Source: a virus
Lineage: Duplodnaviria; Heunggongvirae; Uroviricota; Caudoviricetes
Strand: one strand, 5' to 3'
IMG/VR virus record: IMGVR_UViG_2698536485_000014
DNA length: 13,543 bases
A program made the translations under genes and the position numbers. The notes under the pieces were generated by a model. The model made no database searches and was not told the origin of the DNA. It saw nothing but the letters and a program-made list of their open reading frames with translations. Positions 1 through 13,543 of this stretch are shown piece by piece (position 1 is the first letter of the stretch; the number at the start of each line of letters is the position of its first letter).

Positions 1-252
1 CACGAAAGGCACTCCCCCGAATCAGTTCAGGCTGCGGTCACATCAGCGGGGAAATACCTTTCGGGATAGCTACCCACACAGAAAACCCGCAAAAGAAAAC
101 TGTGTGGATAACTAGCCCAATAGGAGAATTAATCGACCACTCAACGATGATCAGGGTAGTGTTATTTATAAGGCGGCACCGCTACCTGGTCGCCTTTACT
201 TTGGAGGAAAATACGGCAAATCACTTTCACCATTGATTTACGGTATATGTAT

Positions 253-281
253 ATTATATCAGTATTCTCTCAAATTGTCAA
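253..281 (-). promoter_or_regulatory. Consensus sigma70-type promoter firing leftward
   Basis: Reverse complement of 253-281 reads TTGACA, a 17-nt spacer, then TATAAT: both hexamers perfect with optimal spacing. Downstream on the minus strand (1-245) there is no ORF in the window, so the target is an sRNA or a gene beyond the left edge. Confidence 0.4.
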
Positions 282-590
282 CACCCTTATTATATAAATT
301 CTAATAATTAGCGTGGTAACGGTATTTTCAGACCTCTATCAATCCCATCAATACGTCACCCCCACCCTTTAGATGCATACATCCGACCTACTTTGTAGGC
401 TTGGCGTACTGCCAAGGTCGCAGCTATGCGACTCATATCTATCACCACTTTATAAAGCTTGATAGATATCTTTTGATCAATATCAATGTTTTCCGGGGAT
501 TTACCCGGCTATAGTTCGAATCAAGGAAGGGGAGCATTGATAGCACCCCAACCGAACAAACAAATCAACTTCTCGCAAAAGGTGATAGTT

Positions 591-713
591 ATGGGTATCA
601 AGAACAGTGCCAGCGCATGGCAAAAGGCCAGGTTTCATCACCCACACATTATTAAGGCAATTGAGGTGGTTGGAGTGTTAGCCCTGATGTTAGCTCTGTG
701 TGTGGAGGTGTGA
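591..713 (+). CDS. Small hydrophobic peptide (40 aa), possible membrane peptide
   Basis: ATG at 591 lies in frame inside the 486..713 track ORF and is preceded by an AAGGTGA Shine-Dalgarno. The C-terminal half is hydrophobic (AIEVVGVLALMLALCVEV). A 15-nt box TCAACTTCTCGCAAA sits 11 nt upstream of the ATG, as at the 1133 gene. Short ORF, may be non-coding. Confidence 0.3.
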   Translation: MGIKNSASAWQKARFHHPHIIKAIEVVGVLALMLALCVEV

Positions 714-814
714 GATGGGCAAAGGAGGCAAAGCATTTTTAATAAGTCTGGCTATCCTGGATGTTCTACTAATCATGATTGAGCGGAGTTTATGAACAGC
801 ATTGAGAGGAGTTT

Positions 815-1075
815 ATGACGGGGGCTAAAGATATCAGGAGACTGAGGGAAGAGCTGATAGCTGAAATTAAAGCTAAGGCAAAGCAAATGGAGATAGCCGC
901 ACAAATGGATGTAGCGGAGCAGATGTACAAGATGGTTGAGGAGGGAACACCACGACAGGTTATCGCTAAAACCTTCGGTGTGGGGATCGCCACCGTGCAT
1001 AGAAGGCTGAAAGCCTATGCCGACTACCACAATATCGAGAGAAAGGAGGATGGGAGATTCAGGAAAGCTAAATGA
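815..1075 (+). CDS. Small DNA-binding protein with C-terminal helix-turn-helix (86 aa)
   Basis: AGGAG Shine-Dalgarno before ATG 815. Charged coiled-coil-like N-terminus followed by a motif (TPRQVIAKTFGVGIATVHRRLKAY) typical of resolvase/TerS/sigma-type HTH. An 8-codon uORF (792..818) overlaps the start codon via ATGA. Confidence 0.6.
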   Translation: MTGAKDIRRLREELIAEIKAKAKQMEIAAQMDVAEQMYKMVEEGTPRQVIAKTFGVGIATVHRRLKAYADYHNIERKEDGRFRKAK

Positions 1076-1132
1076 TGTAAACGGTCCAACAGGTTATTAA
1101 CTAAACTCAACTTCTCGCAAAGGGGTACCACT

Positions 1133-1720
1133 ATGAACATTAAAACTATCATTGCAGTCATCACTATTGCCTTTAGTGCCAACACCGCAGCTATTGATGT
1201 AGGGGCCGTAAAAGATGCATCTTGTGCTGATAAACTGGCGGCACTTAATGCGGGATTCGATGCACCCCAGGGCTATCAAATGGGGCTATCTCTTAAAAAT
1301 ATTATTCTCCCTATGGAATCTGGCGCTTATGTATACGGAGCGATAGGAAAACTGGAGAAGCCGGAAATTGACCTGCAGGGTGTGAGAGCGAAGATCACAA
1401 AAAGAAATGAAAGCCTTTGTGATGTAGCTGAAATAGCTTTCATATCAGACGATGAAAAATCTATTTTAGCCTTTTGCAAAGATAGCGATGATAATGATCG
1501 CTTCTTTAAGATCACCCACAACAGGCCAATCTCTTTCTACTCTAATGCCACTATGGGCGCGGGTATGCAGTGGCTGAAGAGAGCTAAAGTAACTGAGATC
1601 GACATTGAAAAAGAGGCCAATGCAGGCAGTTATGGATTCTGGAAAGGCTGGACTAAATACACGTTCCAACAATGCGGCATCGATAGTCAGGCCTACGACA
1701 ACGGATTTTGGTTTTTCTAA
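1133..1720 (+). CDS. Secreted/periplasmic protein of unknown function (195 aa), moron-like
   Basis: N-terminus MNIKTIIAVITIAFSANTAA has a classic Sec signal peptide shape (basic residue, hydrophobic core, small-residue cleavage region). Four cysteines in the mature part; aromatic C-terminus (FWFF). GGGG Shine-Dalgarno at 1122-1125; terminator 22 nt downstream. Confidence 0.7.
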   Translation: MNIKTIIAVITIAFSANTAAIDVGAVKDASCADKLAALNAGFDAPQGYQMGLSLKNIILPMESGAYVYGAIGKLEKPEIDLQGVRAKITKRNESLCDVAEIAFISDDEKSILAFCKDSDDNDRFFKITHNRPISFYSNATMGAGMQWLKRAKVTEIDIEKEANAGSYGFWKGWTKYTFQQCGIDSQAYDNGFWFF

Positions 1721-1741
1721 CCTGCTAAGTTAATCCCACCA

Positions 1742-1768
1742 GGGGGCCATCACGGCCCCTTTTTATTT
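1742..1768 (+). terminator. Rho-independent terminator after the 1133..1720 gene
   Basis: Stem GGGGCC (1743-1748), loop ATCAC, stem GGCCCC (1754-1759), followed by TTTTTATTT. Confidence 0.6.
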
Positions 1769-1842
1769 GCCTCTTTGAATTACCCCCTATTTACACTCCT
1801 TTCAGTCCTGATCATCACTCCCTACGGTCATGAGCAATTAAC

Positions 1843-1889
1843 CCCTATTTAAGGGGTATTTAATGGGTATTTAATGCCTATTTATTGAT
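1843..1889. repeat. Four tandem 11-bp AT-rich repeats
   Basis: TATTTAA/TATTTAAT/TATTTAAT/TATTTATT begin at 1846, 1857, 1868 and 1879, an exact 11-bp period. The first unit is embedded in the hairpin CCCCTATTTAAGGGG. Confidence 0.5.
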
Positions 1890-1965
1890 TTAATCCGTTT
1901 TATGCCACAACCGCCCGGTTGACAGAGTAAGAGAGAGGGTGTAACCCTTTTTCGTAACACCAATA

Positions 1966-1981
1966 AAATCAATAAGTTAGC
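1966..1981. repeat. 16-bp exact direct repeat, left copy (AAATCAATAAGTTAGC)
   Basis: Identical 16-mer at 1966-1981 and 9620-9635, with 17 of 18 identity when extended. Rough chance expectation for a 16-mer pair in 13.5 kb is about 0.02. Confidence 0.45.
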
Positions 1982-2356
1982 TTAATAAGCCTTTTCTCTA
2001 TTTTTGTCAAATTTAACATACCCTCAAAAACTGCAAAATCTGGCTGCAAGATTATCTGCAGCTGGATTTCTTACACCTCATTTTGTGGTATCACCCTGAC
2101 TAGTTTGTGCATAAAATGAACAGTTTTTAACATTTCCTCTTCACCTGGTAACCACACAAAAAGCTAAAAACGAGGCACAGATAATCTTAGAGGCCTGTTT
2201 TCTTGTTATCACTCTGGAAACGTCGTAGAAGTGATTTTGATGAAAGATGACCTACCCTATTACACCCCCATTTTTTGTTATCACAATTGCATCCTGTGCG
2301 GTATATGGCTGTGTGCTGAAAGCGGTCTTGGGTGTGGGTGTCAGAAATATCCATTA

Positions 2357-2372
2357 GCGGTATTAATACCCG
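2357..2372. promoter_or_regulatory. Isolated palindrome GGTATTAATACC, related to the CGGTA...TACCG family
   Basis: Perfect 12-bp palindrome at 2359-2370 inside GCGGTATTAATACCCG, with the same half-sites as the array at 3300-3490 but a 1-nt shorter centre. Confidence 0.3.
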
Positions 2373-3157
2373 TCAGATGTTCGTCTGAGGTGCCAGGCAG
2401 GCGCTCCCCCACCTCCCTTTTTTCTTCTAACAATTCTCAAATATCACACCACTGCCCACCACGTTGCTATTATGTTAATTCTTAAGCTTTGCTGTATGTT
2501 GTGCACATTATTTATTCAGGTGCATGTACGTAAATTCTGGGCCTCCTTATCATGATTTTTAAATCAGATTTTGTAGTTCGGTTTCTTAGTGTAGATAAGA
2601 TCTATTATGTTAAATGCAATTTTCCCAACCCTTCAAATCAATGACTTACATGTAAGCATGCACTAACACCCCACACAGCACATTAGACGTGTAGATGTCT
2701 ATATCCCACATTTTTGATTGTTTTGTAGTCATTCCCCTGATCATTTAACCAGTATAGTTTGCTCTCTGCAGACCACAAAATCGGAATTTACATCTGATTA
2801 ACATAATCTGTTAGCATGATCACCATTACCCACACAACAATAACCCCATGCAAGCCTCTTTAGGCAATTTATCGGCGTGTTGGTGTGAACAGTCTTTCAT
2901 GTTCTTTATGTATTCATGACTGCAAGGAATGTATTCATTGTCCTGTGTGAGGGAAGGCTGGACTGCTCCAGGGGCCATAGTTATGATGCCCGGTCAACAT
3001 AGCTGTTGATAAAATCAACGGGTGTTGGCCTGCATATTTCCCACACATGAGAGGAAATCAAAGCAAAGAGAGAGGAGAGAGGTTTGCTAGACGATCAGGA
3101 CTATACAGAGTCAAAATCAAGTCACATTAGAGTCAAATCAGATGCAATCAATCCCCC

Positions 3158-3218
3158 ACCTGTTGGGATTTCCCACATGTTCAACCATACACAGGAGCTA
3201 ACCTGTTGGGATTTCCTA
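3158..3218. repeat. Two 18-bp direct repeats (ACCTGTTGGGATTTCCCA / ...CCTA)
   Basis: 3158-3175 and 3201-3218 match at 17 of 18 positions, 43 bp apart. Confidence 0.5.
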
Positions 3219-3235
3219 CACCTCTTGCACATACC

Positions 3236-3490
3236 CCGGAAGATTTTTCCGGTGTCTCCAACCTGTGAAGAATTTTCACACCTGTAAATCCATACAGCAC
3301 GGTAAAAACTACCGCACAACCTGTCAAAATATTTTACTACTCCCTTTAGTCATACCCCTTTCAGTCATACTCAGGCACCACACCCCGGTAAATATTACCG
3401 TACTCAGGCAGATATAAAGGGGCTAACCACGGCAAATATTTCCCTACTACCTCGGTAAATATTTCCGGTGTACCCCGGTAAAAATTACCG
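3236..3490. promoter_or_regulatory. Phased array of 15-bp palindromic sites (iteron/operator-like)
   Basis: CGGTAAAAACTACCG (3300-3314), CGGTAAATATTACCG (3386-3400), degenerate CGGCAAATATTTCCC (3430-3444), CGGTAAATATTTCCGG (3453-3468), CGGTAAAAATTACCG (3476-3490). Related palindromes CCGGAAGATTTTTCCGG (3236-3252) and GTGAAGAATTTTCAC (3265-3279). Centre-to-centre spacings are 86, 44, 23.5 and 22.5 bp, roughly multiples of two helical turns. Confidence 0.55.
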
Positions 3491-3519
3491 CCTAATAGAT
3501 AAAGTAATAGACCACACAA

Positions 3520-4060
3520 TAGATCCCCCCCTAACCCCCAAGGGGAATGGGGAGGGATCAGAGAGTGGGGAAGGTTTTCTAAGGGAAAAGCTTAACCCAC
3601 AAATGAAAGCCTAAAGAGCATGAGCGACTCTTTAGGCAATCTGTGTGTGGGGGGGGTGACAATGTATTCCATACATGACACGTCACCCAATTGTGTGTGG
3701 GAGTGCCTACGGCACCTTAGCCCATGGCTAAGCCCTTCGGGTCTGTGTGGGTCCGGCGAATGCGTCAGCATGAGGCCCACAATGTGGACCGCTGCCGAAA
3801 GCTTGCCAGCGCCGGAAGGAGGCAGCAAAGAGTCTCCCGCGCTCATGTGTGGGCGTATACGTAAGATATACACTCATAAATCGAAAATAAGCCCCCTAAA
3901 TGGCCTTCTGGCTGCATTAACCTGTGTGAGTAGTGAATTGCATTACCTGATGCTTAAATCGCGTTAGAATCGATTTTAGAGCGCTTAAGGCAAAAAGTGC
4001 CCTCCCTTGTGGGCTTGCTTGTGTCTGCTGTGCAGGCTATGGCACCTATAGCACACCTAA
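3520..4060. other. GC-rich, hairpin-dense non-coding segment; candidate structured RNA or protein-binding array
   Basis: No credible ORF. Perfect 10-bp stem GCCTAAAGAG/CTCTTTAGGC (3609-3637); nested hairpin 3654-3688; GTGCC-TAC-GGCAC (3703-3715); CTTAGCC-CAT-GGCTAAG; a C(TTCG)G tetraloop; GAAA loops. Boxes TGTGTGGG at 3643, 3692, 3744 and 3846, with degenerate copies at 3923 and 4007. Confidence 0.3.
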
Positions 4061-4076
4061 ATGATAATAATTCTCA

Positions 4077-4105
4077 TTGACAATTGGTTGACAATATGAT
4101 AAGAT
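4077..4105 (+). promoter_or_regulatory. Possible sigma70 promoter for the small membrane ORF
   Basis: TTGACA (4077-4082), 17-nt spacer, TAAGAT (4100-4105). A second TTGACA at 4088-4093 lacks a good -10. Confidence 0.3.
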
Positions 4106-4140
4106 TATAAATAGGGGGAGAAACAGATCCGGAGGTCAAT

Positions 4141-4290
4141 GTGGAAATTACAGATGCAATAGCGATCATCAACCTGGCTGTACTGTGGTGCGGTGTTGCC
4201 TACATAGCCGGAGTAACTGCAATCGACAATCTTGAAGAAAAAATGATAGATAAATACAAAAAGATTGTTGACAATTTGACGAATGTCTGA
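4141..4290 (+). CDS. Small membrane protein (49 aa, GTG start), hypothetical
   Basis: GGAGG Shine-Dalgarno at 4131-4135, 5 nt before GTG 4141. The product VEITDAIAIINLAVLWCGVAYIAGVTAIDNLEEKMIDKYKKIVDNLTNV contains one predicted transmembrane helix. Not in the ORF track because it is under 60 aa. Confidence 0.3.
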   Translation: MEITDAIAIINLAVLWCGVAYIAGVTAIDNLEEKMIDKYKKIVDNLTNV

Positions 4291-4296
4291 TAAAAT
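4268..4296 (+). promoter_or_regulatory. sigma70-type promoter upstream of the plus-strand gene module
   Basis: TTGACA (4268-4273), 17-nt spacer, TAAAAT (4291-4296). Predicted start near 4303, about 120 nt before ATG 4423. Confidence 0.5.
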
Positions 4297-4422
4297 ATAA
4301 AGCATAGGGTAATTCTCATCATAGTGAATTTCCTTTAGTAGACTGGCGGGGGCTTGTCTTAAGTTCCCGTTTCTTTTTAACCATATATCGCACAGGTTAG
4401 TGAGCTGACAGGAGATTGAATC

Positions 4423-4638
4423 ATGGCTAAAACCGGACCGATAAGCCAGCTAGTAAACTGGACTACTGACGAAATCGTCGAGAACGTGCTTAAAGGTAAC
4501 TTTCGAAAAACTTCCGTTTATGCATTTATTCGTAAACACAAAGGAGAATATCCACACATTGAAGCGGCAATTTTAGAACTGAACCGTCTCCGCATCGAGC
4601 GTGAGCTGGCTAAATACACCAACAACATTAATAAATAA
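4423..4638 (+). CDS. Small basic protein (71 aa), possible regulator
   Basis: AGGAG Shine-Dalgarno 8 nt before ATG 4423. First gene of a compact co-directional cluster. No recognisable family by eye. Confidence 0.55.
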   Translation: MAKTGPISQLVNWTTDEIVENVLKGNFRKTSVYAFIRKHKGEYPHIEAAILELNRLRIERELAKYTNNINK

Positions 4639-4651
4639 TTATGGGGGAACT

Positions 4652-5518
4652 ATGGCAAACAACTATGGGGAAAATTTTACTCCCCTTTTTAAACGTTTCA
4701 TCAAATACATTTTTAAAAATCCGATTGCAAAAACTACAACCAATAAAGAAAGATTTCACTTAAATTTGTTGGAAATGGCAATTTACGGTGAAATGGCAAG
4801 TTTCCATTTAAACGGTAAAGAAATATTTATCTCTGAGCAAACCTTAGCAGATGATTATGATGCCACAGAAAAAACAGTAAGGTCGGCTATCAAAACATTA
4901 GAGGCTGCAGGACTAATATTTGTAAAACGGAGCAGAGGTAAGTCTAATCATTACAAACTACTTATTACTCCTGATCAGCTTGGCAAGATGTGTGATGAGC
5001 AGGGTATTAAAACCTCCGCAAGTGTGGGATACAGCAAAGAGGCCTCCGATAATCAACAGGAAGCCCCAAAACAAGCCACACAGCAGCCTGAAAAGCCCGA
5101 GGCAATGCAATCCCCTTCCCAACCTAAAAAAGAACGCAGAGAACGCCGTAGAGACGCTGGCAAACGTGAAATAGATGAGCACGGTTATCCGATTCTGACA
5201 AGCGATGAAATGAATGCTAGATATAAAGTAATTCAGGCCGCATTTAAAGATCAGAAGAGAATTAAATTATCTGAATTGCGTGATACATTTTACGGGCCGG
5301 AGGTGATGGATAAAATTAAAGGCACTATTCCCGATAAAATCTGGAAAGAGAAAGATTATTGGCACCTGACAGAGCAGGCCCTTAAGGTGGCTCAACATGT
5401 GGTTAAAAGAGGCAAAACAATTACCCTTGATTCTATTAGTCATGGCTATGATGCACCGAAAGAAAGATTGTGGAACAACTGCAAGCTTGTAAATGGTGAA
5501 TTGACAATTACAAAATAA
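4652..5518 (+). CDS. Winged-helix DNA-binding protein (289 aa), possible replication initiator or organiser
   Basis: GGGGGA Shine-Dalgarno before ATG 4652; the track ORF 4601..5518 begins at an upstream GTG with no Shine-Dalgarno. N-terminal wHTH-like segment (ISEQTLADDYDATEKTVRSAIKTLEAAGLIFVKRSRGK), a low-complexity Q/P/E/K-rich linker, then a C-terminal domain. Architecture resembles iteron-binding initiators such as lambda O; this is an inference. Confidence 0.6.
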   Translation: MANNYGENFTPLFKRFIKYIFKNPIAKTTTNKERFHLNLLEMAIYGEMASFHLNGKEIFISEQTLADDYDATEKTVRSAIKTLEAAGLIFVKRSRGKSNHYKLLITPDQLGKMCDEQGIKTSASVGYSKEASDNQQEAPKQATQQPEKPEAMQSPSQPKKERRERRRDAGKREIDEHGYPILTSDEMNARYKVIQAAFKDQKRIKLSELRDTFYGPEVMDKIKGTIPDKIWKEKDYWHLTEQALKVAQHVVKRGKTITLDSISHGYDAPKERLWNNCKLVNGELTITK

Positions 5519-5557
5519 ATATTCTTATTTTTTACAGTATTCTAAAGGAAATTTAAA

Positions 5558-5704
5558 ATGTATGGCGATTTTGATTATTACCTGGAAAAGGAAAAATATT
5601 TTGAAGATGAACTATCACAACATTTTTCATATTGGGAAGAATATTGTGGTTGGTTAGCTGAAGATCCAGCAGATGAAGAAAATGATTCTGACATCCCTTA
5701 TTAA
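5558..5704 (+). CDS. Small acidic protein (48 aa), hypothetical
   Basis: AAGGAA Shine-Dalgarno before ATG 5558. Product MYGDFDYYLEKEKYFEDELSQHFSYWEEYCGWLAEDPADEENDSDIPY is strongly acidic and aromatic. Below the ORF-track size cut-off. Confidence 0.35.
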   Translation: MYGDFDYYLEKEKYFEDELSQHFSYWEEYCGWLAEDPADEENDSDIPY

Positions 5705-5808
5705 TTAATATCCCCTGTTATCCCCAAATAAACTAAATAAACTAATTACATATAGAACTAGAACTAGATTGATTTCTCTTTAATGTTAAATTGACTGGAG
5801 AATTAATC

Positions 5809-6294
5809 ATGTTCAAATCTGATCTTTCTGATTCCCAATTTGAAAAACTGGTAGCACTGCAGAAATATCTCCCCAGTGATGATCAACCAACACGACAGGC
5901 TAAGCACTTATTAGTCGAGGGCTTTACCCCTGAATTCGTGGCGGAATACACAGGCGTTAAACTTGAGAAAGTCCAAAAACTATATAATGAGTCCTGGAAT
6001 CCACGGTGTAGAGTTCCCCTCAGTGTCTACAACGAAATAGATAGAGATAGAAATGTCTTCGAAGATCGCCGCCGCAAATCTCTTTTAATGTGGAATTGCG
6101 GGATGAATATTGAAGAGATAGCAAAAGAATTAAAAGTAACCTGCTTTCATATCTGGGGCTTGTTGAGTGAAATCCTGCCACGTAAGGAGCTTAATCAACG
6201 TTTGCCTAAGCCCGGTAGTCGTGCTTATCGCGAATTTATATTCATCTACCGCCGCCATAGCAATAAAGTCCGGAAAGCAATGCAGCGCAAATAG
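5809..6294 (+). CDS. Hypothetical protein (161 aa) with two HTH-like segments
   Basis: GGAG Shine-Dalgarno before ATG 5809; the track start 5791 is a TTG. Segments FTPEFVAEYTGVKLEKVQKLY and GMNIEEIAKELKVTCFHIWGLL look like helix-turn-helix motifs. Basic C-terminus. Confidence 0.55.
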   Translation: MFKSDLSDSQFEKLVALQKYLPSDDQPTRQAKHLLVEGFTPEFVAEYTGVKLEKVQKLYNESWNPRCRVPLSVYNEIDRDRNVFEDRRRKSLLMWNCGMNIEEIAKELKVTCFHIWGLLSEILPRKELNQRLPKPGSRAYREFIFIYRRHSNKVRKAMQRK

Positions 6295-6336
6295 CTTATA
6301 GCCTTCACATATGCCGCAAGTTATTGATTCTGCCGT

Positions 6337-6352
6337 CCGGTAAATATGCCGG
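6337..6352. promoter_or_regulatory. Extra copy of the palindromic operator (CCGGTAAATATGCCGG)
   Basis: Same CGGTAAATAT core as the array at 3300-3490, placed 31 nt upstream of ATG 6383 in the gap between two genes. Confidence 0.4.
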
Positions 6353-6382
6353 ATGGCTCATATAAATTTTAAGGAATTCCAA

Positions 6383-6826
6383 ATGTCTCAAATCGCTAAA
6401 TTACTATCCCAGGTTATCAAAGCTTTCGACGCTGAAGATTCAAAAGTTCGCCAGGATCTTTTAGATGGCAAGTTTACCAACACCCTGGCATTTACCCGTG
6501 ACAAAGAGCACTTCTTAAAACACAGACACCACGCTTTTGCTGAATGCAAGTCCGCTAATGGTGATGTTTTCTATGTCGATTTGGTGGTTATGGCATGTAG
6601 GCTGTGGATGATTCAGGACCTTATGCGCCAACACGGTGATGATCCTCTTATCAGCATGTGGAACAGCGCCCAGGATGGCTTTGTGATTGCTGCCTTATCC
6701 AAATCAATGATTGAGGCAGAAGGGGCAAGCCTTCAGAACATGGCAGATCTCTTTGAAATAAGCGTAGGAATGATGCAGACCATGCTCCAAGCTGTCAAAC
6801 CTCTCAAACTGGTTAATCTTGATTAA
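6383..6826 (+). CDS. Hypothetical protein (147 aa), predicted mainly helical
   Basis: AAGGA Shine-Dalgarno 7 nt before ATG 6383; the track start 6353 lacks a Shine-Dalgarno and overlaps the operator. Composition is rich in A, L, M, Q, K and E, unlike a beta-rich tail tube protein. Confidence 0.55.
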   Translation: MSQIAKLLSQVIKAFDAEDSKVRQDLLDGKFTNTLAFTRDKEHFLKHRHHAFAECKSANGDVFYVDLVVMACRLWMIQDLMRQHGDDPLISMWNSAQDGFVIAALSKSMIEAEGASLQNMADLFEISVGMMQTMLQAVKPLKLVNLD

Positions 6827-6885
6827 GCTATTGATAAATAAGCACTCCCCATTTTTGGGGGGTGCATCAATGAGAGGATATGCCT

Positions 6886-7269
6886 ATGAATATTGAAGAA
6901 ATGATAGTTGAATTCGAAGAGGGTGATTTCCTGGAAGATGGGGAGTTTAGTTACTCCCATTTTAAACAGGCGTTATTTAGCAGCGATGATAAACCACACG
7001 TTAGTGATCTTAACGACGATGATTTATGTCGTTGGGTGTGCACCCGCTTATATGAGGATGGAAAATATACAGGCCAAAACTTTCCAAATCTCTATTTCAA
7101 AGCACAAACATTTGAGGAAGGGCAAAGAGTGAAAAACCTGGTCGATCAAATGCTGTCAGCCGGATATTTGCATAAAGAATTATTAAATCCTAAAGCTGAA
7201 AGCAAGCGCCATTATATTTTTGTGTGGACTATTGGCGATAAGTGTCCACTAAGACGCAAAGGCAAATGA
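6886..7269 (+). CDS. Hypothetical acidic protein (127 aa)
   Basis: GAGAGGA Shine-Dalgarno 7 nt before ATG 6886. Acidic N-terminus. Second gene upstream of the tape-measure gene. Confidence 0.5.
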   Translation: MNIEEMIVEFEEGDFLEDGEFSYSHFKQALFSSDDKPHVSDLNDDDLCRWVCTRLYEDGKYTGQNFPNLYFKAQTFEEGQRVKNLVDQMLSAGYLHKELLNPKAESKRHYIFVWTIGDKCPLRRKGK

Positions 7270-7270
7270 T

Positions 7271-7507
7271 ATGAACACCTACGAAAAGATTTATCAAAAA
7301 CTGGTTAAGGACTCCGAAGAGACGCCCGAAGGGGTGACAATAGGTCACCTACCAGAGGCAGCGAAAGAGGGGTCCACCATTATTAAAAGTGGCACCCACA
7401 CAGAAGGCCTCTCAATCGAAGAGCTGGCGGAGAAATATAATATTGATAAAGAGGCCCTGAAAAGGGCTATTTCATTATCAAAATCTTTAAGACAGGGTGA
7501 GGTATAA
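7271..7507 (+). CDS. Hypothetical protein (78 aa)
   Basis: ATG 7271 lies 1 nt after the upstream TGA. The gene ends 1 nt before the tape-measure start, so the three genes are tightly packed. Confidence 0.5.
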   Translation: MNTYEKIYQKLVKDSEETPEGVTIGHLPEAAKEGSTIIKSGTHTEGLSIEELAEKYNIDKEALKRAISLSKSLRQGEV

Positions 7508-7508
7508 A

Positions 7509-9608
7509 ATGGCAATGAAGGAAGTAGCCAAACTAACAAACGTTATTTACTGGGATTCTGATAAATCCTCCTGGCGAAAAGAAGTTAAACGGCTTGAGGA
7601 TTATAAAAAATCCTGGAAGAAAGCTACCGACGATATAGCTAAAGCGGATTTTAAATCGAATCAGGCTGTGCTCAGAACACAAAGAACACGCGCTAAGGTG
7701 GAAGAGCAGATCGCCAGAGCACAGAAGAAACAACGTGCTCAGGCTGTCAGCCGTCTGACCGGGGGCAATAATCCGGAGCTCTCCTCTATGCGCAAGTTCT
7801 ATCAGCAGCAAGCCAGAGAGGCCGCCAGACAACAAAAACTGTTAGATCGTAGTGTTGGAGATGTTCAGCACAGAAAAGCACGTGTAGGGGCCAACAGTGC
7901 ACGAATCAGCAGCATGTTTGATGGCTCCCTGGTTGCTCAGTTCCAAAGCAGGATCCAGAGAGTTAATGCTGATTATGCTAAAGGGGCTATCAACCTGCAG
8001 GCCTATAATCAGAAAATGGCTCGGCTCAGGGCTGAAATGAAGATGGCAACAGCAGAGGCCGGAAAATTTCAGAGCAGACTGGATAAACTGGCATCAGGTG
8101 CCAGCAAGGTGCATGACAACCTGGGCAAAATCAACTCCACACTAGGCAAGATAGCCATTGGCCTTACTGCCGCTGGCTGGGGTGTTCAGCGTGCTGTTAG
8201 TGGTGCTATGGGTAGCCTTGCAGATCGCAACAGTGCCTACTTCGGTTTGATGGCACAGAACAAGGATGATAAAGCCAAGACTGATCAGCAGATGGCTTTT
8301 ATCAAGAACACAGCCTACACCTATGGGATGGATGAGCGGGAGATGCAAGGGGGCTACATGCGCTTTGCTGCAGCTACTCCCACCATGAAGGAATCTGATA
8401 AGCAGGCTCTTTTTGAGGCTATGGCTATTAAAGGTCGCTCAGTGGGTGCTACTGGCGAGCAACAGAACAGGGCGCTTGTTGCGGTCCAACAAATGGCTTC
8501 AAAGGGAAAAGTTATGGCGGAAGAGCTGCGGGGCCAACTGTCAGAAGCCTTTGCAGGCTCACAACAGGATTTTCAACAGGCCGCTATTGATGCCGGAATC
8601 ATCAAGAATACCCAGGAATTCGATAAAGCCCTTAAAGATGGCAAAATCACCCTGGATAAGCTACTCCCTTCTTTGGTGAAAATCTGGTCTGCAGCCAAGA
8701 ATACGAAAGCCTTTGCTGAATCCATGAAACAGCCAGAAGTAGCAATGCAGCGCATGAAAAACAGCTTTAACGAGCTGGCGATTCAGTTTATGGGTGTTGT
8801 GGATCCTGCGGATGGCGTTATTAGCTTATCTGAATCTCTGATCTCCATCTTTGAAGACCTCACCACTGATATGGACGGCAGCGGGAGCGCGGCAAAACAG
8901 TTCGGTGAGGCAGTCGGGGCTGCCATGCGTGAGATCATGTATTGGGTAGGCTTCGCTAAGGGATATATTGAGGTCAAGGCTAAAGAGTTCGGCATGACCG
9001 GATCAGAGGTTGGCGAGCTTATCGGAAAATTGGTAGTCGGCTTAGCTGGTCTGAAAGTTATTACTACACTGCTTTCCCCTCTAACCGGATTTGTTTCACT
9101 TGTCACCCAACTGATAGCTTTGTTAGGTAAAATCCCTGGTATGAGCAAGCTTCTGGCTTCTGCCTCAGGTGGAACGGCAACAGGAGCAGCGGTCATCAGT
9201 GCAGGCTCTAACGCTGAAAGAAGTTTCATTGATGGCAAGACGCAGGAAATGAGTAAGGAGAACTCAAAACAGGGTGCTTTGTTTGAGCTGGGAAGATTTG
9301 TTAGCAATGCTGGCGCACTGTTCACACCTGGCGGTGATACTGGTCCTTTGTTCGATCAGGTCAGAGGCTGGTTTAATAAAGGGCCAACATTGACAGTAGA
9401 CACTGGCATCAGACCTACACCAACAGGCGGCATAGCTATCCAGAATGGTGGATATCAACCAGTCCAAGTAAATGTAGCCCCACAAGGTGAGATTTCCGGC
9501 AAATGGGAGATAACCATTGATGAGGGTGGAATTGCCAGGGTGATCCAGAAGGAAGTCAGCGATCAGTTGGATTGGAAAGCCACACAGGAATCTAACCAGC
9601 TTTTCTAA
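7509..9608 (+). CDS. Tail tape-measure-domain protein (699 aa)
   Basis: GGTGAGG Shine-Dalgarno 6 nt before ATG 7509; the track start 7497 is a GTG. Coiled-coil, Q/R/K-rich N-terminus. Central segment ...QQMASKGKVMAEELRGQLSEAFAGS...KALKDGKITLDKLLPSL... matches my recollection of the conserved tape-measure domain motif. Hydrophobic segments (LIGKLVVGLAGLKVITTLLSPLTGFVSLVTQLIALLG) and a Gly-rich C-terminus are also typical. Confidence 0.6.
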   Translation: MAMKEVAKLTNVIYWDSDKSSWRKEVKRLEDYKKSWKKATDDIAKADFKSNQAVLRTQRTRAKVEEQIARAQKKQRAQAVSRLTGGNNPELSSMRKFYQQQAREAARQQKLLDRSVGDVQHRKARVGANSARISSMFDGSLVAQFQSRIQRVNADYAKGAINLQAYNQKMARLRAEMKMATAEAGKFQSRLDKLASGASKVHDNLGKINSTLGKIAIGLTAAGWGVQRAVSGAMGSLADRNSAYFGLMAQNKDDKAKTDQQMAFIKNTAYTYGMDEREMQGGYMRFAAATPTMKESDKQALFEAMAIKGRSVGATGEQQNRALVAVQQMASKGKVMAEELRGQLSEAFAGSQQDFQQAAIDAGIIKNTQEFDKALKDGKITLDKLLPSLVKIWSAAKNTKAFAESMKQPEVAMQRMKNSFNELAIQFMGVVDPADGVISLSESLISIFEDLTTDMDGSGSAAKQFGEAVGAAMREIMYWVGFAKGYIEVKAKEFGMTGSEVGELIGKLVVGLAGLKVITTLLSPLTGFVSLVTQLIALLGKIPGMSKLLASASGGTATGAAVISAGSNAERSFIDGKTQEMSKENSKQGALFELGRFVSNAGALFTPGGDTGPLFDQVRGWFNKGPTLTVDTGIRPTPTGGIAIQNGGYQPVQVNVAPQGEISGKWEITIDEGGIARVIQKEVSDQLDWKATQESNQLF

Positions 9609-9619
9609 TATTGTGATCT

Positions 9620-9635
9620 AAATCAATAAGTTAGC
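9620..9635. repeat. 16-bp exact direct repeat, right copy (AAATCAATAAGTTAGC)
   Basis: Identical to 1966-1981; lies 12 nt after the tape-measure stop codon. Confidence 0.45.
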
Positions 9636-9655
9636 CTGACCGGATAAACTCCAGG

Positions 9656-9690
9656 CAAGAAAAAAGCCCCTAAGTGTTAACAAAGGGGCT
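9656..9690 (-). terminator. Rho-independent terminator on the minus strand
   Basis: Stem AGCCCCT (9665-9671) pairs with AGGGGCT (9684-9690) around a 12-nt loop. On the minus strand the stem is followed by TTTTTCTTG. On the plus strand no T-run follows. Confidence 0.45.
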
Positions 9691-9719
9691 CTTCTCCGGT
9701 ATCCTTTTGATGCGGGGCG

Positions 9720-9767
9720 AACCTGCTAACAAAAATCAACCTCTCGCGAGACTAATGTTAGCAGGTT
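9720..9767. repeat. 12-bp perfect inverted repeat with 24-nt loop
   Basis: AACCTGCTAACA (9720-9731) pairs with TGTTAGCAGGTT (9756-9767). The loop contains the palindrome TCTCGCGAGA and a degenerate copy of the leader box (TCAACCTCTCGCGAG). Confidence 0.5.
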
Positions 9768-10108
9768 GCCGGAAGGTAAGTCAACTCCGGCCTATAAACC
9801 TTAAAGCGACTATAAAATCGCCCCGCCAATTGTGATGATCCGACCTTTGAGGCGGGTCCGGTGCCCAGGGGGTGCAGTGATGCACAAACCAGGCAACGAT
9901 AAACAGGCTAACAGTGATAGCGGCGCTCAATCAGCGCACTAAATCCTAACCAGTCCGGGAAAGAGGCTGGCTCTATCGACCGCTCATGCACGGGACAATG
10001 CATACCTGATAAAGGATTCTCACAAGGGACCAATCGCGAGAAAAGAAGTGGAAAGGGGCTGATTTGTGGTGTATCACTACGGCCTCAAAAGAACACTATT
10101 ACCTTTTT

Positions 10109-10567
10109 TCAGCCTCTCCCAACATTTGACCAGTATTTGATTGCACCGATCAAATCATCATAGTGGCGCATTGCATCATTGAAGCCTTTATAGCTTGCCC
10201 ATTGTGGGGAGACTTTGTTATTGCTGAATTGCCCACTAATCAGGATAGTCTCCAAAATGTCGGCGTATCGCTTGCCAATTCGCTTTCTGACGGCCTCAGA
10301 GCTTCCACCCTTTACGATTGCATTAATCAGGGCTTTTGTGTGTCTCAGGCTCTCATAGAGCATTGCAGCGTGGGCAGATTCCATAAAGGAGCGCTTAGGC
10401 AGATCACCCCACCCCTCAGAGTGGATAGCTGCCAGTGTGGCGTAATTCAGGCCGCTATAGTGCTTTCCGTCATCCCAGCCAACCGCTACACCTTCCATCT
10501 GTGAGAGCTCTTTATGCAGCTTATCCATCATGCGCTTGTCTATGGTGCAACGGACTTTCGGACTCAT
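10109..10567 (-). CDS. Hypothetical protein (152 aa), possibly virion morphogenesis-associated
   Basis: GGAG Shine-Dalgarno 8 nt before the minus-strand ATG at 10567. The start overlaps the upstream gene stop as ATGA (10564-10567). Function assigned by position only. Confidence 0.55.
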   Translation of the reverse strand: MSPKVRCTIDKRMMDKLHKELSQMEGVAVGWDDGKHYSGLNYATLAAIHSEGWGDLPKRSFMESAHAAMLYESLRHTKALINAIVKGGSSEAVRKRIGKRYADILETILISGQFSNNKVSPQWASYKGFNDAMRHYDDLIGAIKYWSNVGRG

Positions 10568-11367
10568 TTGTTGATCTCCGTGATGTCATCGAGCAACATG
10601 TTGGCCTTATCAATCATCGTTTCGTGGAACTCATTCGACACAACAGACTTATCACCTGCGGCAATCTTTCCCGCTGCCTCTCCCTGTGCATATTCCCCGC
10701 GATGCTTAGCCCTGGTTGATTTCGTAGCAGCATTGCCAGCGTTACTACCCTCTTTAGCACTGTTAACAGCACCCTTTTGCTGTGTTTTATTCACCTTCTT
10801 ACTGTTAGTGAAAACTCCGGCATTTTCGACCATCTTCACCTTGAAGGTGCGGAATTCTTCAAAAGTGCAATCAATAGTGATGCAGTCACCGGAGGAAGAG
10901 CTACGCTTAACTTCACATTTCGTCATGATGAAGTTCTCAAGAAGTCCGGCATCTTCACTCACCAGGCTAACCAGCTGGCGCTTGTCTCTCATTTCCATAA
11001 GAGCACGCACAGCGGCGGCGGGGCGCATGGATTCAAGGGGATTATCTGGATCAGTGTTCCGGTCGATGTAGTTCTCTTTCCGGATAATGTGAGGGGAAGA
11101 GGTAATAATGCCCGTAAAGCTGACAGATTTATCTTTAATGACGGCATGGTCTGACATGGTGGTGCCATCCTCGACCGCATAGCTCGATTTCTCAACAGGG
11201 AACGAATAGCTGACATCAGAGATAGAGTCAAAGAAGATAGCCACATTATCGGTATAGTTGAAGCCATCCATCATATTTTTGTTTTGTGAATATCCCCCAC
11301 ACATAACAGTGAATGCAGGAGATCTCGACTCAGCTTGTTTTGCAGCTGTCAGAGCATCACTAGCCAT
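10564..11367 (-). CDS. Hypothetical protein (about 268 aa), Ser/Thr/Val-rich with low-complexity C-terminus
   Basis: Preferred start is ATG at 11367, with GGAGG 10 nt upstream. The alternatives are ATG 11376 (too close to the Shine-Dalgarno) and the track TTG at 11421. The composition suggests a beta-rich structural protein; this is an inference. Confidence 0.55.
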   Translation of the reverse strand: MASDALTAAKQAESRSPAFTVMCGGYSQNKNMMDGFNYTDNVAIFFDSISDVSYSFPVEKSSYAVEDGTTMSDHAVIKDKSVSFTGIITSSPHIIRKENYIDRNTDPDNPLESMRPAAAVRALMEMRDKRQLVSLVSEDAGLLENFIMTKCEVKRSSSSGDCITIDCTFEEFRTFKVKMVENAGVFTNSKKVNKTQQKGAVNSAKEGSNAGNAATKSTRAKHRGEYAQGEAAGKIAAGDKSVVSNEFHETMIDKANMLLDDITEINK

Positions 11368-11561
11368 AGTAAACATGCCTCCAAATTGGTCCACTTCATG
11401 GATTTGGCTAAACTCGTGCAAATAGCCCTCGTCTTGAGGGTGTTAAAGCCAAACCTGCAAAAGATGCAGGCAAAATAGAACTTATCGTTGCCCTGCTTAA
11501 AATCTGCAGAAAATACAGGGCAGTTATTCGTTAGAATCGCTTATAGCTCTTCCCGAGAGCG

Positions 11562-11813
11562 TTATTTTGCAAAACGATTATGGGCATTCAGGGCTTTTTT
11601 GCGGTCCTGGGCTTGTTTGCGTGCAATAAAATGTTCGAAAGTCTCGGCCCAGGTGCATTTATTATATTCACGGTATTTATGCATAGCCTGGCGGCTAACG
11701 TCATAGCAGGCGGCAAATGTGGAGATACGCAGGAATTCCGGCAGATCCTCGTCATCGATATGGATAATATCAAAAGGCACGTCGTCACGGTCGCCGTATA
11801 AAACAATTTTCAT
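11562..11813 (-). CDS. Small acidic protein (83 aa) with possible HTH
   Basis: GAGGTG Shine-Dalgarno 8 nt before ATG 11813; the track start 11822 is a GTG. Contains the segment CYDVSRQAMHKYREY. Sits just downstream of the capsid terminator. Confidence 0.45.
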   Translation of the reverse strand: MKIVLYGDRDDVPFDIIHIDDEDLPEFLRISTFAACYDVSRQAMHKYREYNKCTWAETFEHFIARKQAQDRKKALNAHNRFAK

Positions 11814-11845
11814 AAAAGACACCTCAAAAAACTTAAGACGGGGAT

Positions 11846-11910
11846 AATAAAAAAGGGAAGAGGGAAAGACCTATCCCCGATCTCTCACCTCTTCCCTTTG
11901 CTTTTATTTG
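11846..11910 (-). terminator. Terminator/attenuator after the major capsid gene, possibly bidirectional
   Basis: Stem AAAGGGAAGAGG (11852-11863) pairs with CCTCTTCCCTTT (11888-11899) around a 24-nt loop. The minus-strand transcript is followed by TTTATTAT; the plus strand is followed by GCTTTTATTT. Confidence 0.5.
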
Positions 11911-11927
11911 GCCTTCGAAGAAGGACC

Positions 11928-12971
11928 TTATTTAGCCTTGGCTTTTGCCAGAGCGGCGGCGGAGTTACTAACACTCACTTTAATCACAACTTCAGGCATC
12001 ATGTTCATGAAAGCATAAGAGGATTCAATGAAGATTTCTCGTTTACCTCTGGACTCTTCCATATACATGAAAGCTTCACGTGCAGCGCCGTTTGCAAGCT
12101 TCAGGTTGCGAGCGCAAGGGCCGAAAAATTGAGTATAAACGCCCACCATATCGCCTAACGCATGCGGCTGGAACTGTGGGACCAGATAAGCAGTATTCTC
12201 TGGCAGACTATCCATTTGCACCACACGCAGAGCTAAGCCCGGAATGCGGAAGGTCGGGAAGCCCGGCAGAATATCCTCAGGGAACATCAGACCTTTGTCG
12301 GTAATATTCTGATTGCCGAACAACAGCACTTTTCTCAACAGTTCATCAGTCTGAATTGCAGCAAAGAGTTCAGCACGGCAGAACAGGGTGAAACCACGCA
12401 GAGCGCGAACAACACCACGCTGTTTAACCTTGCTCAGTGCAACCAGGTCCTGCAGCTGTTTAAGGATATCTTTAGCTAAATCCACTTCGGAAGTAGTTTG
12501 TTGTGCGCCCAGCAGTTCGCACACATTCAGTTCTTTACCCTTGGTGAGGATAATTTTGTTCTCAAAGAGAGCAAGCTGGCGTGCTTCTTCGTGGGTCTGG
12601 CGTAAGCCTTCGCCAAGCTGAATGACACGACGAGCGGTTACAGACTCTAAATTCTCTTCGGAATCTTTGCCCGGAACACGGATACCCTGCCAGTCAGAAG
12701 GATAAATAGCACTTGATGCGGCAGTGAATGCCATATCACCCGTGCCCGTTTCACGCTCATCTGCGGTAATGGTCGCCATCTGTTCACCGTAGCGCGGATA
12801 CTGACCGAAAGCGGTTTGTTTCACCTGGCGAACTTTGTCATATTCAAATTTAAAGGTATTGCACAGAGCAGTAGTGTTGAAGATATCCATTGCTGAAATA
12901 ATCTGGTTATCCAGCGGGATGTCTTTAATCAGACCACACAGATCGCGAACTTCGAATTCTTTCTTAGCCAT
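11928..12971 (-). CDS. Major capsid protein, lambda gpE-like family (about 347 aa)
   Basis: AAGGAGG Shine-Dalgarno 6 nt before ATG 12971; the track start 12977 is a TTG. Size matches gpE-type capsid proteins. N-terminal FKFEYD and C-terminal PEVVIKVSV segments resemble lambda E as I recall it. It follows a decoration-size gene by 11 nt and is followed by a strong terminator. Confidence 0.6.
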   Translation of the reverse strand: MAKKEFEVRDLCGLIKDIPLDNQIISAMDIFNTTALCNTFKFEYDKVRQVKQTAFGQYPRYGEQMATITADERETGTGDMAFTAASSAIYPSDWQGIRVPGKDSEENLESVTARRVIQLGEGLRQTHEEARQLALFENKIILTKGKELNVCELLGAQQTTSEVDLAKDILKQLQDLVALSKVKQRGVVRALRGFTLFCRAELFAAIQTDELLRKVLLFGNQNITDKGLMFPEDILPGFPTFRIPGLALRVVQMDSLPENTAYLVPQFQPHALGDMVGVYTQFFGPCARNLKLANGAAREAFMYMEESRGKREIFIESSYAFMNMMPEVVIKVSVSNSAAALAKAKAK

Positions 12972-12982
12972 CTTCAACCTCC

Positions 12983-13318
12983 TTATTGTGCAACACGCAA
13001 ATCGCCATTGCTGGCAGCGATAACAGCGGCTAAGCCGTCTTTATCCACGTAGGCCGGATTGATATAACAGCCTTTGTTGGCAACAACGATAAAAGCGTCA
13101 CCAACCTCAGCACGTTCTACAACCAGCAGCGGAGTTTTACCGGTGTGTGTTTCTTTAACGAAGGTCTCAACCTCGCCAGCCTCAGTCACCACAACAACAG
13201 TGCCAGCCGGAATCTCAGCTTTAACTTTGTTTTTAATTTCAACGTCGCGAATACTAAATTGCTCATCTGCGGCGTATGAAATGATGTGTCCGCGTGTGCG
13301 GATAGTCATATCTTTCAT
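12983..13318 (-). CDS. Head decoration-like protein (111 aa)
   Basis: AGGTGA Shine-Dalgarno before ATG 13318. Small Val/Ala/Glu-rich product directly upstream of the capsid gene, in the gpD-gpE arrangement. Its stop codon overlaps the capsid Shine-Dalgarno. Call is by position and size only. Confidence 0.45.
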   Translation of the reverse strand: MKDMTIRTRGHIISYAADEQFSIRDVEIKNKVKAEIPAGTVVVVTEAGEVETFVKETHTGKTPLLVVERAEVGDAFIVVANKGCYINPAYVDKDGLAAVIAASNGDLRVAQ

Positions 13319-13356
13319 TTGATCACCTGCGATTTAAATTAACTCCCCTCAAAGAG

Positions 13357-13473: not shown

Positions 13474-13543
13474 TCCACATGGGGAAACCGACAACAGTCG
13501 GATGATAGTTCACAGTATTACGGTTACTAGAGAGCACTATCAC

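What the first reader, a model, noticed from the sequence alone, without database searches (positions are those of the whole stretch)
1843..1889. Four 11-bp tandem AT-rich repeats, one per helical turn
Exact 11-bp periodicity of TATTTAAT-type units just after the secreted-protein gene terminator. Such phasing is typical of DNA-unwinding elements or of binding sites for architectural or initiator proteins. Together with the palindrome array it supports a replication or partition role for the noncoding block.
Basis: seen in the sequence. Interest (0 to 1): 0.35.

Follow-up and report, generated by a model that had tools for sequence, protein, structure and literature searches.

The report
Phased 11-bp protein-docking repeat array
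A short run of AT-rich 11-base repeats, one per turn of the DNA helix, is real and conserved in a family of small E. coli plasmids that look like parasites of rV5-type phages, and it is most likely a docking strip for a small DNA-binding protein, not the replication origin.

Summary
TATTTA cores start at 1846, 1857, 1868 and 1879, exactly 11 bp apart, which is beyond all dinucleotide shuffles. Read in register, the array has six phased AT cores (1831-1896), each preceded by a G/C-rich tetramer.

In 29 relatives with 13 array haplotypes, the six phased positions are always filled. The core is invariant in 50 of 52 units, the tetramers swap, and spacing is only ever 11 or 22 bp. The array stays 80-96% identical where the flanks fall to 24-59%.

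It sits in a fixed-geometry module. It lies 22 or 32 bp upstream of an invariant GTTGACA. An inverted TGTCAAA follows 87 bp later, and an IHF consensus lies at +49 in all 29 relatives.

The DNA-unwinding or origin reading is not supported:
- The array is not the least stable DNA in the element.
- Origin-like features lie about 1.4 kb away: six palindromic iterons, the GC-skew minimum, and a 62-bp match to the helper phage's origin region.

My best reading (confidence about 0.4) is a one-face binding array for a small element-encoded HTH protein acting with IHF, analogous to ParR/parC or StbA/stbS. Its purpose (inheritance, regulation or packaging) is inferred, and no binder was identified. The array itself is of ordinary interest. 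The surrounding element is the more striking result.

The parts
1741..1769 (+). Intrinsic terminator of the HTH86 and secreted-protein operon. In compact relatives its T-tail is the first repeat unit.
   Evidence: 8-bp stem, 6 GC pairs, T-run
1783..1794 (+). Orphan distal unit CCCCCTATTTAC, 58 bp upstream of the main array and out of phase with it. Present only in 'insert-type' relatives.
1795..1830 (+). Optional insert made of two roughly 22-bp repeats (CACTCC...TGATCA...). It is absent from compact relatives, so it is dispensable.
   Evidence: (D3)
1831..1896 (+). The array: six 11-bp units in register, each a 4-nt mostly G/C spacer plus a 7-nt AT core (YAWTTAW). The four central units carry TATTTA(A/T).
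1882..1894 (-). IHF-like box (AATCAATAAATAG, one mismatch to WATCAANNNNTTR) overlapping the last units. It is the inverted partner of the box at 1967.
   Evidence: I5; read from the sequence
1918..1924 (+). Invariant GTTGACA, 22 or 32 bp from the end of the array. No usable -10 hexamer follows, so it is probably a protein site and not a promoter.
1967..1979 (+). Perfect IHF consensus AATCAATAAGTTA. It lies at +49 from GTTGACA in all 29 relatives, and its NNNN positions vary between them.
2005..2011 (+). TGTCAAA, the inverted partner of GTTGACA. It is always 87 bp away although the sequence between diverges to 41-46% identity.
4108..4118 (-). Single inverted copy of the unit (CCCCCTATTTA) overlapping the start region of the sigma-70-like promoter at 4077-4105. 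In the window, and in 8 of the 10 complete elements, it is the only other [CG]4TATTTA (L001 has one further copy).
   Evidence: (I4)

Best explanation
The repeats are a phased array of protein-contact sites on one face of the helix. Each unit is a conserved 7-bp AT core after a variable G/C tetramer, and there are six units over 66 bp.

The array forms a roughly 180-bp cis-acting nucleoprotein assembly site together with an adjacent IHF box and an inverted GTTGACA/TGTCAAA pair. That pair is held 87 bp apart around a second, perfect IHF site. The whole module lies at the left edge of the element's conserved non-coding control block.

The most likely mechanism is that a small element-encoded (winged) HTH protein binds head-to-tail, one copy per turn, and IHF bends the neighbouring DNA so that the flanking sites come together. 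The five small candidates are HTH86, p71, p78, p83 and p161; Rep is a sixth possibility. This is the mode of ParR on parC of plasmid R1 and of StbA on stbS of R388.

The conservation and geometry are shown here. The identity of the binder and the purpose are inferred. Possible purposes are stable inheritance of the plasmid form, repression of the promoter at 4077 that carries one inverted unit, or help in starting packaging about 0.5 kb upstream of the helper-type DNA end.
For: - Periodicity exceeds chance.
- In 29 relatives with 13 haplotypes, all six phased positions are always filled. The TATTTA core is intact in 50 of 52 units while the spacer tetramers vary among CCCC, GGGG, TGGG, TGCC and TACC. 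Core spacing within the array is only 11 or 22 bp.
- Phylogenetic footprint: units -4 to 0 are 80-96% identical to diverged relatives, whereas the adjacent segments are 24% (1897-1917), 41-59% (1925-1961) and 42-46% (1980-2003, L154 and L157).
- Fixed geometry. The distance from the array to GTTGACA is 32 bp in 15 relatives and 22 bp in 14, an exact 10-bp step. GTTGACA to TGTCAAA is 87 bp, and the IHF consensus is at +49, in all 29.
- A single inverted unit overlaps the start region of the promoter at 4077-4105. It is present in 18 of the 22 relatives in which the site was located. About 0.03 extra copies of the 10-mer would be expected by chance in 13.5 kb.
- The element encodes several small HTH proteins and no partition NTPase.
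- 11-bp cycles are the documented mode of StbA/stbDR (bioRxiv 10.1101/2022.04.29.490116), ParR of R1 (PMC9426499) and RepB of pMV158 (PMC1851628).
Against: - No binder was identified. HTH86 gave only generic wHTH structure matches with E above 0.08.
- The protein family is too narrow for protein-DNA covariation: MCP is at least 82% identical and HTH86 at least 84%.
- Known centromere or operator arrays usually overlap the promoter of the gene for their binding protein. This array follows a terminator and overlaps no recognisable promoter.
- Changes by whole units are what replication slippage produces anyway, so conserved phase alone is not proof of selection.
- All relatives are fairly close, so conservation has limited power.
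Confidence: 0.4

Rival explanations
1. The array is a neutral by-product. A micro-satellite arose by slippage from the terminator's tail (GGCCCC-TTTTTATTTAT gives CCCC-TATTTAA) at a recombination junction where cargo genes are swapped. It persists only because the relatives are recent.
For: - In compact relatives the terminator tail is the first unit.
- Unit identities are shuffled and extra distal units come and go.
- The upstream cargo gene is exchanged among relatives (173, 179, 195, 225 or 236 aa), and the array types are reassorted against both flanks.
Against: - The number of phased positions is constant at six across 13 haplotypes.
- The cores are intact in 50 of 52 units while the flanking DNA has diverged to 24-59% identity.
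- The only length polymorphism between the array and GTTGACA is exactly 10 bp.
Confidence: 0.22
2. The array is a packaging accessory. Like the short-repeat arrays that flank the terminal repeats of T7-type phages, it helps the terminase, or a satellite small-terminase-like HTH protein, to assemble near the packaging start.
For: - Window 2391-2445 copies the left boundary of the helper's 459-bp terminal repeat. TGCCA|GGC plus a 24-mer (22 of 24 to phage Gotham, 23 of 24 to rV5_ev168) occur with the same 31-bp spacing (PMC7471380).
- The array lies about 500 bp upstream of that point, at the edge of the same conserved block.
- The helper has its own array of six 16-bp units, 37-116 bp beyond its terminal repeat.
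- IHF-bent inverted sites are the architecture of lambda cosB (from my own knowledge).
Against: - The array is 500 bp from the predicted cut and on the opposite side to the helper's array.
- It differs from the helper's array in period and sequence.
- No TATTTAA array exists in rV5_ev168 or at the Gotham genome junction.
- No satellite protein resembles a small terminase.
Confidence: 0.15
3. The array is a passive DNA-shape element. The anisotropically flexible DNA (AT core, GC spacer, 11-bp cycle) would act as an H-NS nucleation site, a gyrase-wrapping site or an insulator, or as an upstream element for a weak promoter at GTTGACA.
For: - The composition pattern is regular.
- The 10-bp step keeps the array in helical register with GTTGACA.
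- The array sits between an operon's end and a conserved block.
Against: - There are no A-tracts of 4 or more. Each T3 run is bounded by TpA steps, so strong intrinsic curvature is not expected (from my own knowledge).
- GTTGACA has no acceptable -10 hexamer, and the -10 position is not conserved.
- The exact core sequence is conserved, not merely the AT content.
Confidence: 0.12
4. One reading: the array is the DNA-unwinding element, or an iteron set, of the replication origin.
For: - The units are AT-rich and tandem, next to an IHF site, as in pSC101 or R6K-type origins (from my own knowledge).
- The element's Rep protein is an O-like or DnaD-like winged-helix initiator.
- The palindromic iterons share a TAAATA/TATTT core with the units (read from the sequence).
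Against: - The array is not the least stable DNA in the element: rank about 7-10 for 40-60-bp windows and rank 2232 of 13443 start positions for 100-bp windows.
- The cumulative GC-skew minimum is at about 3300-3900.
- Six palindromic iterons lie at 3234-3492.
- The 62-bp match to the helper's iteron-bearing region, which sits beside a gene that RefSeq names a replication initiation protein, is at 3781-3842.
- The only consensus DnaA box is at 103-111.
- The half-site resemblance to the iterons needs a 2-bp shift.
Confidence: 0.08

Closest known systems
parC / ParR of plasmid R1 (type II partition centromere)
   Same: Direct 11-bp repeats, one per helical turn, are bound cooperatively by a small protein so that the DNA wraps into a higher-order complex. 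A minimum of two 11-bp repeats is needed (PMC9426499).
   Different: R1 has ten repeats in two sets flanking the par promoter, next to parM and parR. Here there is one set of six, placed after a terminator. There is no actin-like ATPase and no recognisable ribbon-helix-helix protein. The sequence is unrelated and is found in no other PLSDB plasmid.
stbS / StbA of plasmid R388 (partition without a plasmid-encoded NTPase, plus repression)
   Same: A 9-bp repeat plus a 2-bp spacer gives an 11-bp cycle. A small HTH protein binds on one face. The same repeats also occur in small numbers at promoters that StbA represses. No dedicated NTPase is required (bioRxiv 10.1101/2022.04.29.490116).
   Different: stbS is two sets of five repeats in the promoter of stbA itself. 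Here there is a single set, not at a promoter, and only one extra unit at another promoter. No StbA homologue was identified.
bind locus of the pMV158 double-strand origin (RepB)
   Same: Three tandem 11-bp direct repeats serve as the high-affinity initiator binding site, at a distance from the site of action (PMC1851628).
   Different: pMV158 replicates by rolling circle, with a nicking initiator and a nick-site hairpin. The initiator here is a lambda O-like or DnaD-like winged-helix protein.
Short-repeat arrays beside terminal repeats of T7-type phages, and the helper's own array of six 16-bp units
   Same: Tandem short repeats lie close to the DNA end that the terminase makes. The element copies the helper's end sequence about 500 bp away.
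   Different: The period (11 against 16 bp), the sequence, the side and the distance all differ. The function of such arrays is itself unclear (T7 details are from my own knowledge).
Iteron origins with an IHF site and an AT-rich unwinding element (pSC101, R6K gamma)
   Same: Tandem repeats lie next to a conserved IHF site.
   Different: The period here is half the usual 19-22 bp. The array is not the easiest DNA to melt, and the element's origin-like features lie elsewhere.

Membership tests
Origin DNA-unwinding element / origin iterons | Among the least stable duplex DNA of the replicon | tested here: not met
   Nearest-neighbour stability puts it about 7th to 10th among non-overlapping 40-60-bp windows. 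For 100-bp windows it ranks 2232 of 13443 start positions.
Origin DNA-unwinding element / origin iterons | Coincides with the strand-composition switch and lies next to initiator sites or the rep gene | tested here: not met
   The cumulative GC-skew minimum is at about 3300-3900. The palindromic iterons are at 3234-3492. The rep gene is at 4652-5518, 2.7 kb away.
Origin DNA-unwinding element / origin iterons | Supports initiator-dependent replication when cloned | not testable with these tools
   This needs a mini-replicon assay.
Type II partition centromere (parC/ParR/ParM) | Tandem direct repeats of about one helical turn | tested here: met
   Six units at exactly 11 bp.
Type II partition centromere (parC/ParR/ParM) | Adjacent genes for an actin-like ATPase and a ribbon-helix-helix adaptor, with the repeats at their promoter | tested here: not met
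   No ParM, ParA or TubZ family hit among the 17 proteins in Pfam or PHROGs; NCBIfam was run on 10 of them and also gave none. No promoter overlaps the array.
StbA/stbS-type single-protein segregation | 11-bp cycle of direct repeats bound by a small HTH protein | tested here: inconclusive
   The 11-bp cycle is met. Small HTH proteins are present. Binding was not tested.
StbA/stbS-type single-protein segregation | Two sets of five repeats in the promoter of the binding protein's own operon | tested here: not met
   There is one set, downstream of a terminator.
Rolling-circle origin bind locus (pMV158 family) | Rolling-circle initiator and a nick-site hairpin nearby | tested here: not met
   Rep matches lambda O-like or DnaD-like initiator families (PHROG 270, 391, 186; Pfam HTH_36) and not rolling-circle initiators.
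Phage packaging-site accessory repeats | Lie at or next to the terminase cut or terminal-repeat boundary, and are shared with the helper if the helper's terminase is used | tested here: inconclusive
   The predicted cut mimic at 2395/2396 is about 500 bp away. No such array occurs in rV5_ev168 or at the Gotham junction.
Intrinsically curved DNA / UP-type promoter element | Phased A-tracts of at least 4 bp upstream of a functional -35/-10 pair | tested here: not met
   The runs are T3 or A2 only (read from the sequence). GTTGACA has no acceptable -10 and is not listed by the promoter scan.
IHF-assisted nucleoprotein complex | Match to WATCAANNNNTTR, conserved in position | tested here: met
   AATCAATAAGTTA at 1967. 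It is at +49 from GTTGACA in 29 of 29 relatives, and the NNNN positions vary (TAAG, TAGC, TAAC).

The most novel reading that the evidence does not exclude
The array would be the centromere-like or packaging-initiation docking site of a previously undescribed class of element. That element is a 13.5-kb autonomous plasmid that parasitises virulent rV5-like myoviruses. It builds its own capsid and tail parts, and it carries mimics of both the helper's terminal-repeat boundary and the helper's origin. In this reading the array, with IHF, is where an element-specific HTH protein marks the satellite DNA for inheritance or for encapsidation.
Probability: 0.25. Interest if true: 0.6.

Novelty: new member of a known kind. 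Interest (0 to 1): 0.3.

Why it matters
The array by itself is one more example of a common design: short direct repeats, one per helical turn, that let a small protein coat one face of the DNA. It matters mainly as a handle. It is the best-defined cis site private to the element, in a plasmid family seen in more than a thousand E. coli assemblies. That family appears to be an unstudied satellite of rV5-type phages, which are lytic phages. Finding what binds the array would show how the element is inherited, regulated or packaged.

Tried and rejected
- **Helper motif.** I looked for the unit in helper phage DNA. There is no TATTTAA array and no enrichment of the unit in rV5_ev168 or at the Gotham genome junction.
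- **T4-type late promoters.** TATAAATA is not enriched in rV5: 8 copies against about 10 expected (my estimate).
- **Array pattern in IMG/VR.** The scan returned only unrelated AT-rich contigs.
- **Array as a BLAST query against plasmids.** Only the family itself matched.
- **Distant relatives.** MCP-based searches of species-representative genomes and of IMG/VR found nothing. The protein database holds only close family members for MCP and HTH86, so protein-DNA covariation could not be tested.
- **Rfam.** No family matched.
- **HTH86 structure.** The AlphaFold2 model (pLDDT 83) searched with Foldseek against the PDB gave only generic winged-HTH matches.
- **Fis.** Checking the Fis consensus by eye found no G(-7)/C(+7) pair in register.
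- **ArcA.** The ArcA direct-repeat consensus (TGTTA at 11 bp; PMC3798270) does not fit.
- **GTTGACA and its inverted copy as convergent promoters.** Neither has a conserved -10 hexamer.
- **Long-range RNA stem UUGACA/UGUCAA.** The pairs never vary, so the alignment says nothing for or against it.
- **Curvature modelling.** I did not run it because I could not verify the wedge parameters.

Full report
**What is there**

TRF finds a period-11 array at 1846-1884. TATTTA cores start at 1846, 1857, 1868 and 1879. Self-match at lag 11 is 27 of 33. Dinucleotide shuffles reach at most 24 for the whole window, 21 for the non-coding block and 22 for any period from 6 to 20.

Read in 11-bp register, the array is six units long (1831-1896): TGAGCAATTAA, CCCCTATTTAA, GGGGTATTTAA, TGGGTATTTAA, TGCCTATTTAT and TGATTTAATCC. 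Each unit is a mostly G/C tetramer followed by a 7-bp AT core. An orphan unit (1783-1794) and an optional insert separate the array from the terminator at 1741-1761.

**What the window is**

The 13,543 bases are one complete unit of a family of 13.2-13.9 kb circular E. coli plasmids. One database record is an assembled trimer.

The genes are:
- An 86-aa HTH protein (HTH86).
- A swappable secreted cargo protein.
- A lambda O-like or DnaD-like initiator.
- Several small proteins.
- A tape measure protein.
- A Dit-like tail protein.
- A neck or tail-completion protein.
- A major capsid protein.

There is no terminase, portal or partition NTPase.

Two structural proteins are 45-50% identical to rV5 proteins, and the tape measure protein is 26% identical. 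The family is narrow (capsid protein at least 82% identical, all E. coli) but common: its 49-aa marker protein is indexed in 1,657 blocks of the assembly collection. I found no paper describing it. A 2025 review says only one plasmid has so far been shown to be a phage satellite (PMC12282955).

**Comparison with relatives**

I compared 29 copies: complete plasmids, metagenome contigs and assembly contigs. They give 13 array haplotypes.

- The five unit positions upstream of TGATTTAAT always hold a YAWTTAW core.
- In units -1 to -4, TATTTA is intact in 50 of 52 cases.
- The tetramers vary among CCCC, GGGG, TGGG, TGCC and TACC.
- Core spacing inside the array is only 11 or 22 bp.

In compact relatives the terminator's T-tail is the first unit. 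In others, 25-130 nt of insert and one to three out-of-phase units are added upstream.

Against diverged relatives the array is 80-96% identical, while the neighbouring segments fall to 24%, 41-59% and 42-46% (L154, L157).

Downstream, the geometry is fixed:
- GTTGACA lies 32 bp (15 copies) or 22 bp (14 copies) from the end of the array.
- TGTCAAA lies 87 bp after GTTGACA in all 29.
- A perfect IHF consensus lies at +49 in all 29, with varying N positions.

One inverted unit overlaps the start region of the promoter at 4077-4105. It is present in 18 of the 22 relatives in which the site was located.

**Why it is not the origin**

- The array is only about the 7th to 10th least stable short window in the element.
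- The cumulative GC skew turns at about 3300-3900.
- Six palindromes of the form CGGTAAATATTTCCG lie at 3234-3492.
- Window 3781-3842 is 85-87% identical to an intergenic region of 119 rV5-like phages.
- In the phages that region carries four 21-bp palindromic repeats and an AT-rich stretch. It sits beside a gene that some RefSeq records call a replication initiation protein, and it is internal to the genome of phage Gotham.

**What else is in the block**

- Phage Gotham has 459-bp terminal repeats (PMC7471380). Its left boundary, TGCCA|GGCGG, followed at a 31-bp start-to-start offset by TTCTTATAATAATTCTCAAATATC, is matched in the window. TGCCAGGC is at 2391 (unique in the window) and TTCTTCTAACAATTCTCAAATATC is at 2422, with the same offset. 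This match is present in 24 of the 26 relatives examined.
- A further island (2101-2160) scores 41 against a shuffle maximum of 33.
- A dif-like Xer site lies at 2588-2615. It matches dif at 21 of 28 positions, including the whole XerD arm, and is found in 26 of 27 relatives; the exception, L020, is a 3.4-kb contig.

The block is therefore a mosaic of cis sites. The array with its IHF module is the left-most, and it has no counterpart in the helper or in other plasmids.

**Mechanism**

The conserved core, the free spacer, the strict one-turn register, the constant number of units, the 10-bp step to the next site and the IHF-centred inverted pair all point the same way. They suggest a protein that coats one face of the DNA as part of a bent, higher-order complex.

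This is how ParR/parC of R1 (PMC9426499), StbA/stbS of R388 (bioRxiv 10.1101/2022.04.29.490116) and RepB of pMV158 (PMC1851628) work. I could not identify the binder. HTH86 models as a long helix plus an HTH with a small wing, but it has only generic structural neighbours. The purpose is inferred.

Slippage from the terminator tail at a cargo-swap junction remains a serious rival. A packaging role is possible, given the end mimic 500 bp away and the helper's own 16-bp array beside its terminal repeat.

**Verdict**

The origin or unwinding interpretation is not supported. The protein-docking reading is the best supported, at about 0.4. The array is a new member of a known kind and of modest interest. 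The element around it deserves separate follow-up.

Noticed in passing
window 1-13543 (whole element): The window is a complete, roughly 13.5-kb circular plasmid that looks like a satellite of virulent rV5-like (Vequintavirus) myoviruses. It has its own major capsid protein, tape measure protein, Dit-like tail protein and neck protein (two are 45-50% identical to rV5 proteins). It has no terminase or portal. It is common in E. coli assemblies, and I found no paper describing it.
   Followed up: partly
window 2391-2445: TGCCAGGC plus TTCTTCTAACAATTCTCAAATATC copy the left boundary of the 459-bp terminal repeat of phage Gotham and the same site in rV5_ev168, with an identical 31-bp offset. This is probably a mimic of the helper terminase's cut site, which predicts a DNA end at about 2395/2396. 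It was found in 24 of the 26 relatives examined.
   Followed up: partly
window 3781-3842: A 62-bp stretch is 85-87% identical to an intergenic region of 119 rV5-like phages. In the phages that region lies beside four 21-bp palindromic repeats and a gene that some RefSeq records annotate as a replication initiation protein. It is probably a mimic of the helper's origin.
   Followed up: partly
This is the likely origin of the element, served by its O-like initiator.
   Followed up: partly
window 2588-2615: A dif-like Xer recombination site, AGTGTAGATAA-GATCTA-TTATGTTAAAT, matches dif at 21 of 28 positions with a perfect XerD arm. It is present in 26 of 27 relatives; the exception, L020, is a 3.4-kb contig. 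It is probably the plasmid's multimer resolution site.
   Followed up: partly
window 2004-2520: This non-coding block is more conserved than the genes, at 99% identity to two closer relatives over 2025-2200 (L001, L009). It contains a hairpin at 2031-2061 with three compensatory base-pair changes in the divergent lineage. It could be a structured RNA or a DNA recognition region.
   Followed up: partly
window 566-579, 1108-1121, 9737-9750: The motif TCAAC(T/C)TCTCGC(A/G)A occurs three times. Two copies lie about 13-16 nt upstream of start codons (the small ORF ending at 713 and the secreted protein). It is absent from rV5.
   Followed up: no
window 1964-1979 and 9618-9633: An identical 16-mer, AAATCAATAAGTTAGC, containing the IHF consensus, occurs twice. 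The second copy lies just after the tape measure gene.
   Followed up: no
window 2150-3600 versus 3640-3930: CCCACA(C)A motifs lie on the + strand up to about 3600, and their complement TGTGTGGG lies on the + strand after about 3640. The same motif is concentrated in the helper's gene-poor terminal region (rV5_ev168 103.3-106.4 kb).
   Followed up: no
window 1133-1720: The secreted 195-aa cargo gene is replaced by unrelated-length genes (173, 179, 225 or 236 aa) in relatives. The exchange happens between a conserved leader and a conserved terminator, so this is a cargo-swap hot spot.
   Followed up: no
window 253-281 (- strand): A perfect consensus sigma-70 promoter (TTGACA, 17 nt, TATAAT, with an extended TG) points towards the capsid operon across the record junction.
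   Followed up: no
L159/L160 (phage Gotham MT682716), 37-116 bp right of the terminal repeat: The helper phage has six TTYACA motifs at 15-16-bp spacing just beyond its terminal repeat. This resembles the short-repeat arrays beside the terminal repeats of T7.
   Followed up: no
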